From Firmicutes bacterium UBA5559 (GTDB taxonomy: Bacteria > Bacillota > Clostridia > Peptostreptococcales > Anaerovoracaceae): a stretch of DNA of 64,000 bases. Positions 32,728 through 36,704 of the stretch are shown piece after piece. The stretch covers positions 46,221-110,220 of the forward strand of contig DIMT01000001.1 in the NCBI GenBank assembly GCA_002425705.1, given 5' to 3'. The notes beneath the pieces were generated by a model, which was given only the letters and a program-made list of their open reading frames with translations, was not told the DNA's origin and ran no database searches. The translations under genes and the position numbers were made by a program. Numbering within the stretch: the stretch's first letter is position 1; each line of letters opens with the position of its first letter.

Positions 32728-32790
32728 CAAAGATTTTAATTTTGTGCTATGATAAAGGACAAAAGTGAAAAAATCATACAGGAGGAAAGC

Positions 32791-34101
32791 ATGCAGGAAA
32801 ACAGGATATGGAGTCCGGAAGAAACCCTGGACAGGGAGCAGTTCCGGGACATACAAAGCAAACGATTGAAAGAAATGGTTCAGCGGGTCTATGATTCCGT
32901 GCCCCATTACAAAAAGAAATTTGACACGATGGGTCTGTCTCCGGCGGATATTCAGTCTGTGGATGACCTGTCCAAACTTCCCTTTACCACCAAGCTCGAC
33001 TTTCGGGACAATTACCCCTACGGGTTGTTTGCTGTACCCCAGAAGCAGGTGGTGAGAATCCATGCTTCCTCCGGAACCACCGGAAAGCCGACAGTAGTTG
33101 GTTATACAAAAAACGATATGGAAATGTGGAAGGAAATGATCGCCAGGCTGGTCACCATGGCCGGCGTCACCGATGAAGATGTGGCACAGATTTCCTTCGG
33201 ATACGGATTATTTACAGGGGCCTTCGGTCTCCACCAGGGCCTGGAGCACGTGGGAGCCACAGTGATTCCCATGTCCAGCGGCAATACTCGTAAACAGATC
33301 ATGGTCATGCAAGACTTCGGCACCACGGCTCTGATCAGCACCCCTTCCTATGCCCTCCATATGGCGGAAATCGCCAAAGAAATGGGCATCGACCCGAAGA
33401 AGGACCTGAAACTGAAGTGGGGACTATTTGGGGGCGAAGGATCCACCGAAGCCATGCGCCGGGAAATCAATGAAGCCTGGGGTTTGTTTGCCACGGAAAA
33501 TTATGGCATGAGCGAGCTGATCGGGCCGGGAGTTTCCGGTGAATGCCTGGCCCTCAAAGGGATGCACATCAACGAGGACCATTTCTTTCCGGAAATCATC
33601 GACCCGGAAACCGGTGAAGTGCTGCCGCCGGGATCCGTGGGAGAGTTGGTCATTACGACTCTTTCCAAAGAAGCCCTGCCCATCATCCGGTACCGGACCA
33701 GCGACATTACCTCTTTGCATTATGAAAAATGTGATTGCGGCAGGACTACCGTCCGAATGGCAAAAATTTCCGGCCGTTCCAACGATATGCTGATTCTGGG
33801 GGGAGTTAATGTATTCCCCTCCCAAATCGAAGAAGTCCTGTTCAACGTGGACGGTATCGGGCCCCATTATCAGATTAAGGTTTACAAGAAAGGCCATCTG
33901 GATCGGATTGAAGTGGACGTGGAACTGGTCAACGCCGATCTGCTGGATTCCTTCAGCCAGATCGAAAACCTGAACCAGACCATCCGGCAGCGACTCCGAA
34001 CCGTGCTGGGCATCGATGCGAAAGTCAATATCATGCAGCCAAGGACCCTGCAGCGTTTCGAAGGGAAAGCCAAGCGGGTCATCGATCTGAGGGAGGAATA
34101 A
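32791..34101 (+). CDS. paaK: Phenylacetate-CoA ligase family (aryl-acetate-CoA ligase), copy 1
   Basis: ATG 32791 follows GGAGG. HASSGTTGKPTVVGYT (AMP-binding P-loop), YGMSELIGPGV, RYRTSD, and GRSNDMLILGGVNVFPSQIE are present. Confidence 0.85.
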   Translation: MQENRIWSPEETLDREQFRDIQSKRLKEMVQRVYDSVPHYKKKFDTMGLSPADIQSVDDLSKLPFTTKLDFRDNYPYGLFAVPQKQVVRIHASSGTTGKPTVVGYTKNDMEMWKEMIARLVTMAGVTDEDVAQISFGYGLFTGAFGLHQGLEHVGATVIPMSSGNTRKQIMVMQDFGTTALISTPSYALHMAEIAKEMGIDPKKDLKLKWGLFGGEGSTEAMRREINEAWGLFATENYGMSELIGPGVSGECLALKGMHINEDHFFPEIIDPETGEVLPPGSVGELVITTLSKEALPIIRYRTSDITSLHYEKCDCGRTTVRMAKISGRSNDMLILGGVNVFPSQIEEVLFNVDGIGPHYQIKVYKKGHLDRIEVDVELVNADLLDSFSQIENLNQTIRQRLRTVLGIDAKVNIMQPRTLQRFEGKAKRVIDLREE

Positions 34102-34103
34102 AA

Positions 34104-34520
34104 ATGGGAATCAAACAATTATCGATTTTTATTGCCAATGAAGCAGGGACCCTGGCCGATGTTACCCGGATCTTCCGGGAACATGAAATCGACATACGGG
34201 CCATCTCCGTTTCCGATACCGTGGATTACGGAATCCTGCGGGTGGTGGTCAGCGAGCCGGAACGGGCCGTGGAAGAACTGGCTAAAGAGGGAATCGTATC
34301 CAAACTCAGCGAGGTCCTGGCCGTAGATCCGGAAGACCGACGGGGCAGCTTGAATGACATCTTCACGCTGCTGGGAGACAACGGCATCAACATCGACTAT
34401 ATCTATTCTTTTCTGGTTCGGGAGGACGGGGCCCAGCTTTTTGTCATAAAAGTGACAGATCAGCAGAAGGCCCAGGAACTGTTGATGGCAAATGGTGTGC
34501 GAATCATAAAAAATATCTGA
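34104..34520 (+). CDS. ACT domain-containing protein (tandem ACT), copy 1
   Basis: 138 aa. LSIFIANEAGTLADVTRIFREHEIDIRAISV plus a second ACT-like half. It lies 3 nt after paaK copy 1. Confidence 0.75.
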   Translation: MGIKQLSIFIANEAGTLADVTRIFREHEIDIRAISVSDTVDYGILRVVVSEPERAVEELAKEGIVSKLSEVLAVDPEDRRGSLNDIFTLLGDNGINIDYIYSFLVREDGAQLFVIKVTDQQKAQELLMANGVRIIKNI

Positions 34521-34527
34521 TTTTTTG

Positions 34528-34556
34528 TTGACAATAACAAAAAATACCGGTAGAAT
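34528..34556 (+). promoter_or_regulatory. Consensus SigA promoter driving the T-box leader
   Basis: TTGACA (34528-33), 17 nt spacer, TAGAAT (34551-56). Confidence 0.8.
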
Positions 34557-34569
34557 AGGAATAACTTCA

Positions 34570-34812
34570 TAGCAAAAGCGATGACAGGGTAAAGTAAGAT
34601 GATCCGGCGGATTACAGAGAATCGGCAGTGCTGAGAGCCGACAGAAGCAGACATCCCAAGTTCCCCCTTGAGCTGACCGGCTGAACCGATAGTAGGCCGT
34701 TCCGGGTTCTCCCGTCACAGAGATAAGGATTCATGGAGTCCTGAGTGGCCGTAAGGCAATAAGAGTGGTACCGCGGGCTTCCCGTCTCTTAGGAGATTGG
34801 AAGCCTTTTTTT
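34570..34812 (+). promoter_or_regulatory. T-box riboswitch leader (probable Phe/UUC specifier) with terminator
   Basis: K-turn AGCGATGA (34577-84) pairs with TGAGCT (34669-74). AGTA is at 34593-96 and the AG bulge AGAGA at 34616-20. The distal loop is AGTGCTGAGA. The T-box sequence AGAGTGGTACCGCG is at 34762-75. The terminator is GGCTTCC...GGAAGCC plus T7 (34776-34812). Confidence 0.85.
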
Positions 34813-34862
34813 GTTCGGGAACCGGCGTGGCCGGAAATTGTTGGAATAAAGGAGAATGAACC

Positions 34863-36161
34863 ATGATTTGGAATGAGCCGAAAGAATGTATGAGCAGGGA
34901 TGAGCGGACGGCAGAGCAGAGCCAGCGTCTGAAAGAGACAGTGAACCGGGTCTATCATAATGTGGCCTTTTATCGGAAAAAGATGCAGGAACTGGGCCTG
35001 GAACCGGGAGACATCAAAGGCATCGAAGACATCCATAAGCTGCCCTTTACTACCAAGAATGATCTGCGGGAAAACTACCCCTTCGGATTGTTTGCTGTGC
35101 CCAAAAGCGAAATCGTCCGGGTCCACGCCTCCTCCGGCACCACCGGAAAGCCCATCGTGGTAGGATACACCCGAAAAGACATCGACCTGTTCTCTGAAGT
35201 AGTAGCCAGAGCCTATTGCTGCGCTGGTGCTACCAAAGACGACATCGTCCAGATCGCCTATGGCTATGGCCTATTCACCGGTGGCCTGGGGATGCATTAC
35301 GGTGCAGAAAAGCTGGGGGCAGCAGTGGTTCCCATCTCTGGAGGCAATACGGAAAAGCAGCTGGCCCTGATGCAGGATTTCGGCAGTACGATTCTGGCCT
35401 GCACCCCCTCCTATGCGGCCTTCCTTTCAGAAGCCATCGAAGAAGCGGGAATCGATAAAAACCAGCTTCAGCTGAAAGCCGGTATCTTCGGGGCAGAACC
35501 CTGGAGCAACGAGATGAGGGCCAAGATCGAAGAGGGCTTAGGCATCACCGCCTATGACATCTACGGACTCAGTGAGATCATCGGACCGGGCGTCTCCTGC
35601 AGCTGTTATGTTCAGGAGGGACTCCACGTGGCGGAGGATCATTTCTATCCAGAGATCCTGGATCCGGAAACCCTGAAGGCAGTCACCCCGGGCACCACCG
35701 GCGAACTGGTCTTCACCACCATTACCAAGGAAGGCATGCCCCTGCTCCGGTACCGGACCCGGGATCTGGCCAGCCTCAATTACGATGCCTGCGCTTGCGG
35801 GCGGACCAATGTGCGGATGTCCAAGATTCAGGGACGTTCCGACGATATGCTCATTATTCGGGGGGTCAATGTATTCCCCTCCCAGGTGGAAAGCGCTCTC
35901 CTGGAAATCGAAGAAGCCAAACCCCATTACATGCTGATCGTAGACCGGGTGGGAACCATGGACACCCTGGAGATTCAGGTTGAAATCGATGATAGATATT
36001 TCAGCGATGAAATGGTAGAATTAAATAAAGTGCGGCAGAAAATCAAACACAAGGTGGAAAGTATTCTGGGAATCAGCGTCAACATCAACCTGGTGGAGCA
36101 CAAAACCATTGCAAGAAGCGAAGGAAAAGCCAAGAGAGTCATCGATAGGCGAAAGATATAG
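34863..36161 (+). CDS. paaK: Phenylacetate-CoA ligase family, copy 2 (T-box controlled)
   Basis: 432 aa with HASSGTTGKPIVVGYT, YGLSEIIGPGV, RYRTRD, and GRSDDMLIIRGVNVFPSQVE. By eye it is about half identical to copy 1. Confidence 0.85.
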   Translation: MIWNEPKECMSRDERTAEQSQRLKETVNRVYHNVAFYRKKMQELGLEPGDIKGIEDIHKLPFTTKNDLRENYPFGLFAVPKSEIVRVHASSGTTGKPIVVGYTRKDIDLFSEVVARAYCCAGATKDDIVQIAYGYGLFTGGLGMHYGAEKLGAAVVPISGGNTEKQLALMQDFGSTILACTPSYAAFLSEAIEEAGIDKNQLQLKAGIFGAEPWSNEMRAKIEEGLGITAYDIYGLSEIIGPGVSCSCYVQEGLHVAEDHFYPEILDPETLKAVTPGTTGELVFTTITKEGMPLLRYRTRDLASLNYDACACGRTNVRMSKIQGRSDDMLIIRGVNVFPSQVESALLEIEEAKPHYMLIVDRVGTMDTLEIQVEIDDRYFSDEMVELNKVRQKIKHKVESILGISVNINLVEHKTIARSEGKAKRVIDRRKI

Positions 36162-36176
36162 GGGAGGACGAAACCT

Positions 36177-36575
36177 ATGATAATCAAGCAACTGACGGTT
36201 TTTTTACAGAACGACATCGGCAGGCTGGAAGAACTGACCAGAATTTTAGGCGAGAATGATATCAACATATCCGCCCTCAGCGTGGCAGAAACCGAAACCT
36301 ACGGTATCATGCGGATGATTGTCAGCGACATCGACAAGGCCATGGATGTCCTCAAAGATGCCGAATTCACGGTCAAAACCACCGATGTCCTTTCCCTCCA
36401 GTGCCCCGATATCCCGGGAGCCCTCCATCGAGCACTCCTGGTTCTCAGTGGTGCCGGGATCAGCATCCGGTACATGTACGGCTATTCCGATGCCGGAATC
36501 GCCCGACTTATCCTCAAGATCTCAGACCCGGAAAAAGGCCGGGAATTGTTGGAAAATCACTTGCAATCCTGCTAA
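36177..36575 (+). CDS. ACT domain-containing protein, copy 2
   Basis: 132 aa. LTVFLQNDIGRLEELTRILGENDINISALSV plus a second ACT-like half. Confidence 0.75.
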   Translation: MIIKQLTVFLQNDIGRLEELTRILGENDINISALSVAETETYGIMRMIVSDIDKAMDVLKDAEFTVKTTDVLSLQCPDIPGALHRALLVLSGAGISIRYMYGYSDAGIARLILKISDPEKGRELLENHLQSC

Positions 36576-36617: not shown

Positions 36618-36649
36618 AAAGAGTGGGCAAGCCCACTCTTTCACTTTTG
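36618..36649 (+). terminator. Rho-independent terminator after the paaK2-ACT2 operon
   Basis: AAAGAGTGGG-CAAG-CCCACTCTTT stem followed by CACTTTTG. Confidence 0.75.
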
Positions 36650-36704
36650 TTAGCAGGAAATTAATTAAATAAGTATTTAAAAATTGGTTTAAGCAGGTGT
36701 TAAA

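What the first reader, a model, noticed from the sequence alone, without database searches (positions are those of the whole stretch)
34528..34862. T-box leader with probable Phe (UUC) specifier controlling an aryl-acetate-CoA ligase/ACT operon
All hallmark T-box elements are visible: K-turn, AGUA, AG bulge, distal loop, AGAGUGGUACCGCG, and an overlapping terminator. The specifier-loop 3' side is 34656..34664 (CCAAGUUCC). By my hand fold, it lies between the helices GAUG/CAUC and AGGG/CCCU. Alignment to the glyQS layout puts the codon at UUC (34661-63), which is Phe. The antiterminator bulge UGGU fits a discriminator A. T-boxes normally induce aminoacyl-tRNA synthetase, biosynthesis or uptake genes when the tRNA is uncharged. 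A PaaK-type ligase fits that logic only if it feeds the reductive carboxylation route known from rumen and gut anaerobes: phenylacetate to phenylacetyl-CoA to phenylpyruvate to Phe. The sequence therefore suggests Phe-starvation-induced scavenging of phenylacetate for Phe synthesis. One caveat: the residue after the codon is C, not the usual purine, and the C5 run allows register slippage (alternatives GUU or UCC).
Basis: partly seen in the sequence, partly recalled or inferred. Interest (0 to 1): 0.6.

Follow-up and report, generated by a model that had tools for sequence, protein, structure and literature searches.

The report
Phenylalanine T-box controlling phenylacetate-CoA ligase operon
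A standard tRNA-sensing RNA switch (T-box) that reads the phenylalanine codon UUC sits in front of a phenylacetate-CoA-ligase-like gene and a small ACT-domain gene, which suggests that this anaerobe rebuilds phenylalanine from scavenged phenylacetate when phenylalanine runs short; no enzyme activity has been measured.

Summary
Window 34572-34792 (+) matches Rfam T-box RF00230 at 106.5 bits (cut-off 93). It has its own promoter (34528-34556) and a terminator (34775-34812) that overlaps the antiterminator.

The specifier is UUC (34661-34663, Phe). The same model layout gives the correct amino acid for the six other T-boxes of this genome. In 16 orthologous leaders AAGUUC is invariant. The next base varies (C x13, A x2, G x1), which settles the register doubt. 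tRNA-Phe(GAA) has discriminator A, matching the UGGU bulge.

The switch controls a two-gene operon: a PaaK-family ligase (34863-36161) and an ACT-pair protein (36177-36575). This ligase clade is distinct from the iorAB-linked paralogs.

The metabolic reading (phenylacetate to phenylacetyl-CoA to phenylpyruvate to Phe on Phe starvation) is inferred, not shown. No canonical indolepyruvate oxidoreductase was found in this 84%-complete assembly, but five other 2-oxoacid:ferredoxin oxidoreductase loci are present. The essential pheS is also missing, and in five relatives pheS lies 11-13 kb from iorA. An assembly gap is therefore likely.

The RNA is an ordinary T-box; the target gene is the unusual part. 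This scan noted the same arrangement in at least 37 other genomes. I found no paper describing it.

The parts
34528..34556 (+). sigma-70-type promoter of the leader: -35 TTGACA (34528-33), 17-nt spacer, -10 TAGAAT (34551-56)
   Evidence: consensus scan, 11 of 12 matches; lies 15 nt upstream of the start of the Rfam match
34572..34792 (+). T-box leader (Stem I, Stem II, IIA/B, Stem III, antiterminator)
   Evidence: RF00230, 106.5 bits, above the cut-off of 93, full-length match; covariation in 16 orthologous leaders
34578..34673 (+). Stem I, with K-turn, specifier loop, AG bulge and distal loop
   Evidence: model alignment; upper helices covary: 14 of 16 pairs change on both sides
34661..34663 (+). 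specifier codon UUC (Phe), followed by C 34664 where a purine is usual
   Evidence: positions 5-7 of the 8 unpaired 3' loop bases in the Rfam layout; the same layout is correct for 6 other T-boxes of the genome; UUC is invariant in 16 orthologous leaders while the next base varies (C/A/G)
34760..34791 (+). antiterminator, with the 7-nt bulge UGGUACC (UGGU at 34766-69)
   Evidence: fold at -10.1 kcal/mol; the fourth bulge base, U, pairs with discriminator A of tRNA-Phe
34775..34812 (+). intrinsic terminator (hairpin 34775-34806 plus U-run); its 5' arm overlaps the 3' half of the antiterminator
   Evidence: fold at -22.4 kcal/mol, z -3.79, 0 of 200 shuffles as stable
34863..36161 (+). PaaK-family AMP-forming arylacetate-CoA ligase, 432 aa
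   Evidence: PF00501 + PF14535; TIGR02155 at 598.3 bits, below the equivalog cut-off of 646.3; PDB 2Y27 PaaK1, E 7.9e-140; member of a separate clade, support 100/99
36177..36575 (+). stand-alone ACT-pair protein, 132 aa, second gene of the operon
   Evidence: PF19571 ACT_8, E 6.5e-23; PDB 2F06, E 1.4e-32; follows the ligase in at least 22 of the 26 relatives' ligase genes extracted
36618..36651 (+). terminator-like hairpin plus T-run that ends the two-gene operon, before rimP
   Evidence: rimP-nusA-infB follow
32749..34520 (+). context: an upstream diverged paaK paralog (32749-34101; 51% identical) and its ACT-pair protein (34104-34520; 36% identical), with no T-box
   Evidence: long branch next to the 'paaK before iorAB' clade

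Best explanation
This is a class-I transcriptional T-box riboswitch specific for tRNA-Phe. Transcription starts at the promoter at 34528-34556.

When tRNA-Phe(GAA) is charged, the leader folds into the terminator (34775-34812) and transcription stops. When tRNA-Phe is uncharged, its anticodon pairs with UUC (34661-63) in the specifier loop. Its free ACCA end pairs with UGGU (34766-69), which stabilises the antiterminator. RNA polymerase then reads into a two-gene operon: a PaaK-family AMP-forming ligase and an ACT-pair protein.

The ligase most likely converts phenylacetate to phenylacetyl-CoA. A ferredoxin-dependent 2-oxoacid oxidoreductase (IOR or a VOR/POR-type enzyme) would then reductively carboxylate it to phenylpyruvate, and a transaminase would make Phe. 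The operon would thus be a Phe-starvation-induced salvage route.

Shown: the RNA, its structure, the specifier, the matching tRNA, the operon layout and its conservation. Inferred: the ligase's substrate, the direction of flux, and the role of the ACT protein (perhaps an amino-acid-sensing partner of the ligase).
For: RNA:
- RF00230 at 106.5 bits, full length.
- Canonical structure 92.5% paired; 25 pairs change on both sides; 0 of 500 shuffles reach this.
- Terminator and antiterminator alternative. Promoter.

Specifier:
- The Rfam layout puts UUC in the codon slot.
- The same layout reads GUU before valS, AUC before ileS, AAC before an asparagine synthetase-like gene, CUC before a leuA-like gene, and UGG before a trpB-like gene and before a TrpXYZ-like transporter.
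- AAGUUC is invariant in 16 orthologous leaders, and the next base is C, A or G. A 17th leader, from an Aminipila MAG, also reads GAAGUUCC.
- TBDB reports that UUU makes up about 1% of Phe specifiers in Bacillales, and that the codon ends one base before the helix.
- tRNA-Phe(GAA) is present with discriminator A.

Operon:
- paaK followed by ACT in at least 22 of the 26 relatives' ligase genes extracted.
- A terminator follows the ACT gene.

Function:
- PaaK family by Pfam, NCBIfam and PDB.
- The T-box clade is a distinct, well-supported ligase clade.
- iorA is present in all 15 T-box-bearing relatives, and five OFOR loci are present in this genome.
- PMC13285125 shows that the IOR-linked AMP-forming ligase of Bacteroides is an arylacetate-CoA ligase. 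It argues for an anabolic role and notes phenylpyruvate activity of VOR.
- Aryl acids feed aromatic amino acid synthesis through IOR in M. maripaludis. Phe is made from phenylacetate in rumen bacteria (Allison 1965, cited).
- Contigs from RNA libraries of three studies bridge the leader and paaK. DNA carry-over is not excluded.
Against: - No enzyme activity, labelling or regulation was measured.
- The ligase scores below NCBIfam's PaaK equivalog cut-off (598 against 646 bits), so phenylacetate specificity is not established.
- No canonical IOR alpha was found in this genome or in one congener that is 93% complete.
- The base after the codon is C rather than the usual purine, in this leader and in 12 of its 15 aligned relatives. 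This could weaken tRNA binding.
- T-box presence is patchy within the ligase clade. 13 of 29 orthologs lack it, including the closest one at 88% identity. The regulation is therefore dispensable.
- The IOR co-occurrence is weak evidence, because 143 of 200 family genomes carry IOR anyway.
Confidence: 0.7

Rival explanations
1. The T-box is Phe-specific, but the ligase serves Phe supply in another way. It could activate a different aromatic or aliphatic acid (4-hydroxyphenylacetate, indoleacetate, phenylpropionate or phenyllactate). It could also make phenylacetyl-CoA for a purpose other than reductive carboxylation.
For: - The ligase is below the PaaK equivalog cut-off.
- The Bacteroides and C. 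difficile ligases assayed in PMC13285125 accept PA, HPA and IA.
- Three ligase clades exist in this family, and none has a measured specificity.
Against: - A Phe-only specifier is conserved in all 17 leaders.
- Only phenylacetate gives Phe by one carboxylation and one transamination.
- The closest solved structures are phenylacetate-CoA ligases.
Confidence: 0.15
2. The operon is catabolic or energy-yielding. The ligase would run in reverse (phenylacetyl-CoA + AMP + PPi to ATP) during Phe fermentation, or would detoxify phenylacetate.
For: - The family is made up of amino-acid-fermenting anaerobes with IOR clusters.
- Arylacetates are end products of the oxidative Stickland branch (PMC13285125).
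Against: - Inducing Phe breakdown when tRNA-Phe is uncharged would be counter-productive.
- AMP-forming ligases favour CoA-ester synthesis, and the catabolic clusters described use Pta/kinase or ADP-forming ligases (PMC13285125).
Confidence: 0.05
3. The leader is a decaying or constitutive T-box. The pyrimidine after the codon weakens tRNA binding, so the element acts mainly as a plain terminator or attenuator.
For: - C at 34664 where the Rfam consensus and the six other T-boxes of this genome have a purine.
- Several relatives have lost the T-box, and one (L111) keeps only a 3' remnant.
Against: - All other conserved motifs are intact, at 106.5 bits.
- C at this position is conserved in 13 of 16 leaders across many genera, alongside compensatory changes in the helices. 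This indicates purifying selection on a working RNA.
- No sequence variant falls in the leader between 34409 and 34928 in four environmental runs, while the flanking genes vary.
Confidence: 0.05
4. The specifier is not Phe: register slippage in the C-run would make it GUU (Val) or UCC (Ser).
Against: - In relatives the run is interrupted (UUCACCCU, UUCGCCCU), which fixes the helix as CCCU/AGGG and the codon as UUC.
- The Val T-box of this genome already sits before valS.
- tRNA-Ser has discriminator G, which does not fit UGGU as well.
Confidence: 0.02

Closest known systems
Class-I transcriptional T-box leaders (Rfam RF00230; B. subtilis tyrS and glyQS type)
   Same: Full architecture: K-turn, specifier loop with S-turn, AG bulge, distal loop, Stem II, IIA/B, Stem III, a UGGN bulge in the antiterminator, and a competing intrinsic terminator. 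The codon sits one base before the helix, and the third codon base is C (the 'C-rule').
   Different: - The base after the codon is C, not a purine.
- The regulated genes are neither an aminoacyl-tRNA synthetase, a classical biosynthetic gene nor a transporter. They are a PaaK-type CoA ligase and an ACT protein.
- In this lineage pheS itself has no T-box.
Phenylacetate-CoA ligase PaaK (B. cenocepacia PaaK1/PaaK2, PDB 2Y27/2Y4N/2Y4O; TIGR02155)
   Same: Same family and length. E 7.9e-140 to PaaK1. AMP-binding and AMP-binding_C_2 domains.
   Different: - Below the equivalog cut-off.
- No aerobic paa catabolic genes are adjacent.
- It is paired with an ACT protein and placed under a starvation signal, which implies an anabolic rather than a degradative role.
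IOR-linked arylacetate-CoA ligases of anaerobes (Bacteroides thetaiotaomicron, PDB 4R1L; paaK-iorAB-paaK-ACT clusters; M. maripaludis aryl-acid route)
   Same: Same ligase family (E 3.4e-117 to 4R1L). Same paaK-ACT pairing. Same proposed chemistry: arylacetate to aryl-CoA to arylpyruvate to amino acid (PMC13285125).
   Different: - The T-box-regulated genes form their own clade, sister to the 'after iorAB' ligases.
- They are not adjacent to iorAB.
- The IOR-linked clusters of 13 relatives carry no T-box.
ACT-pair protein PDB 2F06 (B. thetaiotaomicron, 'conserved hypothetical protein') and AHAS small subunits
   Same: ACT_8 pair fold family, E 1.4e-32 to 2F06. Weak similarity to the ACT domain of AHAS regulatory subunits.
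   Different: No ligand or partner is known. A role as a regulatory partner of the ligase rests only on conserved adjacency and a weak complex prediction.

Membership tests
T-box leader (RF00230) | Covariance-model score at or above the curated gathering score | tested here: met
   106.5 bits against 93; model positions 1-219 of 219
T-box leader (RF00230) | Stem I with K-turn, specifier loop (S-turn), AG bulge and distal loop; Stem II, IIA/B and III | tested here: met
   Model alignment. Canonical pairs 92.5% kept in 16 leaders, with 25 pairs changed on both sides.
T-box leader (RF00230) | Conserved T-box sequence that forms an antiterminator with a UGGN bulge, mutually exclusive with an intrinsic terminator | tested here: met
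   AGAGUGGUACCGCGGG at 34762-77. Antiterminator -10.1 kcal/mol against terminator -22.4 kcal/mol, sharing 34775-34791.
T-box leader (RF00230) | Specifier codon matches a tRNA of the genome whose discriminator pairs with the N of UGGN | tested here: met
   UUC against tRNA-Phe GAA at G000:C6:6752-6827; discriminator A against U 34769
T-box leader (RF00230) | Conserved purine immediately 3' of the specifier | tested here: not met
   C at 34664. Among the 16 aligned leaders it is C in 13, A in 2 and G in 1. The six other T-boxes of the genome have A or G. This is a frequent feature of the family, not an absolute one.
T-box leader (RF00230) | Read-through that depends on uncharged cognate tRNA | not testable with these tools
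   Needs an in vitro transcription assay or a reporter assay.
Phenylacetate-CoA ligase PaaK (TIGR02155 equivalog) | Score above the curated equivalog cut-off | tested here: not met
   598.3 bits against a cut-off of 646.3. It is a family member, but not certified as an equivalog.
Phenylacetate-CoA ligase PaaK (TIGR02155 equivalog) | ANL adenylate-forming fold with the PaaK-type C-terminal domain | tested here: met
   PF00501 + PF14535; PDB 2Y27, E 7.9e-140 over residues 5-431
Phenylacetate-CoA ligase PaaK (TIGR02155 equivalog) | Activity and specificity for phenylacetate | not testable with these tools
   Needs an enzyme assay. Pocket residues were not compared.
Arylacetate reductive-carboxylation route to aromatic amino acids | Arylpyruvate-forming ferredoxin oxidoreductase (IOR or a VOR/POR-type enzyme) in the same genome | tested here: inconclusive
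   - No IOR alpha above the cut-off in G000, which is 84% complete.
- Five other OFOR loci are present, including a VorB-type and a four-subunit type.
- IOR is present in 15 of 15 T-box-bearing relatives.
- pheS is also unassembled, and it lies 11-13 kb from iorA in 5 of 5 relatives.
Arylacetate reductive-carboxylation route to aromatic amino acids | Aromatic aminotransferase that converts phenylpyruvate to Phe | not tested
   Not searched.
ACT-pair protein (PF19571) | Two tandem ACT domains above the Pfam cut-off | tested here: met
   ACT_8 at 81.5 bits against 23.5; ACT with 2 stretches

The most novel reading that the evidence does not exclude
The T-box-regulated paaK-ACT pair would be a dedicated, two-tier-controlled phenylacetate-to-phenylalanine salvage module. 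The T-box senses tRNA-Phe charging. The ACT-pair protein would be a Phe-binding regulatory subunit that docks on the ligase and shuts it off when free Phe returns.

This would make the clade the first arylacetate-CoA ligases with an assigned anabolic role and an allosteric partner, and it would mark the iorAB-linked paralogs as specialised for other aryl acids.

Support for the docking is weak. The complex prediction gave ipSAE 0.42 against a best control of 0.00, with partner pLDDT at least 83 and the runs agreeing in at least 90% of contacts. In the tool's calibration 58 of 80 solved complexes and 2 of 110 mismatched pairs reached the mark. At scores of 0.60 or under, only 7 of those solved complexes and both mismatches did.
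Probability: 0.3. Interest if true: 0.6.

Novelty: new member of a known kind. Interest (0 to 1): 0.45.

Why it matters
PaaK-like ligases and IOR genes of anaerobes are routinely annotated as degradative, and gut-microbiome work treats them as sources of phenylacetate. A recent biochemical paper (PMC13285125) could only suggest that the AMP-forming ligases might work in the synthetic direction.

A Phe-specific T-box is a built-in physiological label. It says the cell wants this ligase exactly when tRNA-Phe is uncharged. That is regulatory evidence for the anabolic direction, and it assigns phenylacetate as the likely substrate of one ligase clade.

The evidence points to an easy experiment: Phe limitation, labelled phenylacetate, and a tRNA-dependent antitermination assay. 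It would also improve annotation and metabolic models of digester, sediment and gut Clostridia. The RNA mechanism itself is textbook.

Tried and rejected
1. Comparison with a pheS T-box. pheS is not in the G000 assembly; the only hit is 29.8 bits, probably pylS. Five relatives have pheS but no T-box within 1.5 kb. The six other T-boxes of the genome were used as calibration instead.

2. RNAalifold on the 16 leaders paired invariant segments wrongly, for example AGGG with the 3' end and AGUUC with GAGCU. I counted the canonical structure instead.

3. A single-sequence fold of Stem I is no better than shuffles (z +1.46). This is expected for a stem built from non-canonical motifs and is not evidence against it.

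4. The simple terminator scan missed the T-box terminator because the hairpin is interrupted and its loop exceeds 8 nt. The fold shows the terminator.

5. RNA-library contigs. One run (X19) covers the leader up to 34772 and then nothing until 36038. A part without cover cannot be interpreted, and only one study stops there. Contigs show neither expression level nor transcript ends.

6. T-boxes in front of the iorAB-linked paaK paralogs of 13 relatives: none found by Rfam or by motif.

7. T-boxes among the 80 best paaK loci from all phyla: only the Aminipila MAG has one.

8. Canonical IOR, chorismate synthase and DAHP synthase were not found in G000. This is not taken as absence. The assembly is 84% complete, chorismate synthase is present in 184 of 200 family genomes including both congeners, and the essential pheS is missing too.

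9. Literature. No paper in the held library links a T-box to a phenylacetate-CoA ligase. The two main T-box regulon surveys (Vitreschak 2008; Gutierrez-Preciado 2009) are not held, so prior mention cannot be excluded.

10. Substrate-pocket comparison with PaaK1: the review I read gives no residue list, so this was not attempted.

Full report
**What is there**

Rfam's covariance model for T-box leaders (RF00230) matches window 34572-34792 on the + strand. The match covers the whole model at 106.5 bits (gathering score 93, E 1.6e-22). It is the only Rfam family found in the 64-kb window.

- The K-turn (GCGAUGA / UGAGC).
- The AGUA S-turn.
- The AG bulge (ACAGAGAA).
- The distal loop.
- Stem II with its GAA/AGUA motif, Stem IIA/B and Stem III.
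- The T-box sequence AGAGUGGUACCGCGGG.

A sigma-70-type promoter, TTGACA-17-TAGAAT (11 of 12 matches), lies at 34528-34556, 15 nt before the match.

The 3' end folds in two ways. One is an antiterminator (34760-34791, -10.1 kcal/mol) with the seven-base bulge UGGUACC. The other is a stronger terminator hairpin (34775-34806) followed by a U-run (-22.4 kcal/mol for the region, z -3.8, 0 of 200 shuffles as stable). The two share bases, so they exclude each other. The leader is therefore a transcriptional T-box.

**The specifier**

In the Rfam alignment the 3' side of the specifier loop is eight unpaired bases, CAAGUUCC (34657-34664). It lies between the helix GAUG/CAUC and the helix AGGG/CCCU. 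The codon occupies positions 5-7, which is UUC (34661-63). Position 8, normally a purine, is C.

I calibrated this layout on the six other T-boxes of the same genome. It reads:
- GUU before valS.
- AUC before ileS.
- AAC before an asparagine-synthetase-like gene.
- CUC before a leuA-like gene.
- UGG before a trpB-like gene.
- UGG before a TrpXYZ-like ABC transporter.

In all six the next base is A or G.

Relatives settle this. I searched 200 genomes of the same family. Earlier notes of this scan call the organism Anaerovoracaceae, and my nearest public hits are a Family XIII MAG and an Aminipila MAG.

The search separated an orthologous ligase group (66-88% identical) from paralogs (at most 58% identical). 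Of the 29 best orthologs, 15 carry a T-box just upstream, at 110-136 bits. The Aminipila MAG carries one as well.

In the alignment of 16 leaders, AAGUUC is invariant. The following base is C in 13, A in 2 and G in 1. CCCU and its partner AGGG are invariant. UUCACCCU and UUCGCCCU leave only one register, so the codon is UUC (Phe).

The genome encodes tRNA-Phe(GAA) with discriminator A, which pairs with the U of UGGU. TBDB reports the same codon placement, and it reports that UUU makes up only about 1% of Phe specifiers in Bacillales.

**Is the fold real?**

I counted the canonical T-box structure on the 16 leaders. 92.5% of cells are paired, against 40-44% when the 3' partners are slid by one to three columns. 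25 of 46 pairs change on both sides. None of 500 column shuffles reaches the observed values on any measure.

The helices that bound the specifier loop from above covary strongly. The AGGG/CCCU helix never varies, so it neither supports nor contradicts the structure.

**What it controls**

Fifty nucleotides after the U-run, behind an AAAGGAG ribosome-binding site, starts a 432-aa protein (34863-36161).
- It has AMP-binding and AMP-binding_C_2 domains.
- It scores 598 bits on NCBIfam's PaaK model, below the equivalog cut-off of 646.
- It matches the solved phenylacetate-CoA ligases of Burkholderia cenocepacia at E 7.9e-140 and the Bacteroides thetaiotaomicron ligase at E 3.4e-117.

Fifteen bases later comes a 132-aa protein made of two ACT domains (PF19571). 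Its nearest structure is 2F06, an uncharacterised B. thetaiotaomicron protein.

A hairpin with a T-run follows at 36618-36651, and then rimP-nusA-infB begins. The unit is therefore a two-gene operon. At least 22 of the 26 orthologous ligase genes I extracted are followed by an ACT gene.

Directly upstream (32749-34520) lies a second, diverged ligase-ACT pair. It is 51% and 36% identical and has no T-box.

**Where the ligase sits in its family**

A maximum-likelihood tree of 54 ligases from this bacterial family gives three well-supported clades:
- Ligases encoded just before iorAB.
- Ligases encoded just after iorAB and before an ACT gene.
- A clade of 27 sequences (support 100/99) that holds the focal protein and every T-box-regulated gene.

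The third clade is sister to the second. Inside it the T-box is patchy (at least seven changes) and occurs in the deepest branch as well. This fits an ancestral T-box with repeated loss. The closest ortholog (88% identical) has none, and one relative keeps only a 3' remnant.

The iorAB-linked clusters of 13 relatives have no T-box. In five relatives pheS has none either. The paaK-ACT leader is thus the only Phe T-box I saw in this lineage.

**How it most likely works**

The RNA part follows established T-box mechanics and is well supported. The metabolic part is inference.

A T-box turns genes on when its tRNA is uncharged. The product should therefore raise the supply of that amino acid. An AMP-forming ligase makes CoA esters essentially irreversibly. 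Phenylacetyl-CoA is one reductive carboxylation and one transamination away from Phe.

This route is documented:
- In rumen bacteria (Allison 1965, cited in PMC7356843).
- In Methanococcus maripaludis through IOR (Porat et al., cited in PMC4162585).

A 2026 paper assayed the IOR-linked AMP-forming ligase of Bacteroides as an arylacetate-CoA ligase and suggested an anabolic role. It also recalls that VOR enzymes act on phenylpyruvate (PMC13285125).

**The missing oxidoreductase**

This genome (1.94 Mb, 39 contigs, 84% complete) has five OFOR loci: a VorB-type three-subunit enzyme, a four-subunit enzyme 33 kb downstream, a further locus on contig C16 (where weak matches hint at a second gene set), a two-subunit OAFO type, and PFOR. 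No IOR alpha was found above the cut-off.

I do not read that as absence. The essential pheS is also missing from the assembly. In five of five relatives pheS and iorA lie 11-13 kb apart. One unassembled segment probably holds both.

IOR is present in all 15 T-box-bearing relatives, but also in 143 of 200 family genomes overall, so this co-occurrence is weak evidence. Chorismate synthase and DAHP synthase were likewise not found here. Chorismate synthase is present in 184 of 200 family genomes, including both congeners. The route is best seen as salvage alongside de novo synthesis.

**Other evidence**

Near-identical DNA occurs in bioreactor, biofilm, sediment, fuel-cell, soil and sludge metagenomes from 14 studies. 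Contigs from RNA libraries of three studies span the leader and run into the ligase gene. This is compatible with read-through transcripts, but DNA carry-over cannot be excluded and contigs carry no information on level.

No sequence variant falls in the leader in those runs, while the flanking genes vary.

A complex prediction of ligase with ACT protein gave weak support. The ipSAE was 0.42 against a best control of 0.00, with partner pLDDT at least 83 and the runs agreeing in at least 90% of contacts. In the tool's calibration such low passes are more often wrong than right unless the pairing was already likely.

**Comparison with what is known, and novelty**

The RNA is a regular member of RF00230. 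It has one deviation, a pyrimidine after the codon, which is conserved in most of this clade.

The unusual part is the target. I found no paper in the held library that links a T-box to a phenylacetate-CoA ligase. The two classical regulon surveys are not held, so I cannot exclude an earlier table entry.

This scan has noted the same arrangement on other DNA at least 37 times, once with iorAB inside the T-box operon. I did not test those notes.

**Verdict**

The T-box and its Phe specificity are near certain. The phenylacetate-salvage function is likely, at about 0.65-0.7, but unmeasured.

Noticed in passing
L116:2989-3105 (+), L109:2908-3030 (+), L118:1271-1408 (-); not in the window: In 9 of the 16 aligned leader loci (15 relatives plus the focal window), the 250-680 nt between the T-box terminator and paaK hold a conserved 38-45-aa ORF on the opposite strand. 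It has its own AAGGAGG site, Cys-rich ends and a hydrophobic core (GGIDDSLLFFFLLLVI..). T-box read-through would be antisense to it. It has no Pfam match and was not found in G000. It may be a small membrane peptide or a type-I-toxin-like gene.
   Followed up: partly
G000:C28:5848-5921 (-) and C28:2912-3316 (-); outside the window: ARAGORN calls a tRNA with anticodon CUA (tRNA-Pyl). About 2.5 kb away is a weak pheS-like class-II synthetase hit (29.8 bits). Together they look like pylT and pylS, which would mean pyrrolysine decoding in this organism.
   Followed up: no
G000:C6:110683-110933 (463 nt past the window's end) and L014:683-6983: A Trp (UGG) T-box controls an ABC transporter (PF04392 binding protein, permease, ATPase; TrpXYZ-like). 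A four-subunit 2-oxoacid:ferredoxin oxidoreductase (gamma-delta-alpha-beta) follows directly.
   Followed up: partly
window 32749-34520: A second ligase-ACT pair sits directly upstream without a T-box. The ligase is a long branch next to the 'paaK before iorAB' clade, yet it is followed by an ACT gene like the other clade. In the closest relative (L099) the same paralog pair is followed by the ortholog with no T-box between them.
   Followed up: partly
L111, last 120 nt before paaK: A relative keeps only the 3' part of the T-box (AGAGUCGGUGCCACGGG... plus a terminator) and has no Stem I. This looks like a decayed leader.
   Followed up: no
L118:1-106 (-) and L119:4165-4267 (+): An azaaromatic (yjdF) riboswitch aptamer (RF01764, 84-88 bits) lies about 0.9 kb upstream of the T-box leader in two relatives.
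   Followed up: no
G000 as a whole: pheS, iorA, chorismate synthase and DAHP synthase are all unassembled in this 84%-complete MAG. In relatives pheS and iorA are 11-13 kb apart, so pathway-absence calls for this genome are unsafe.
   Followed up: partly
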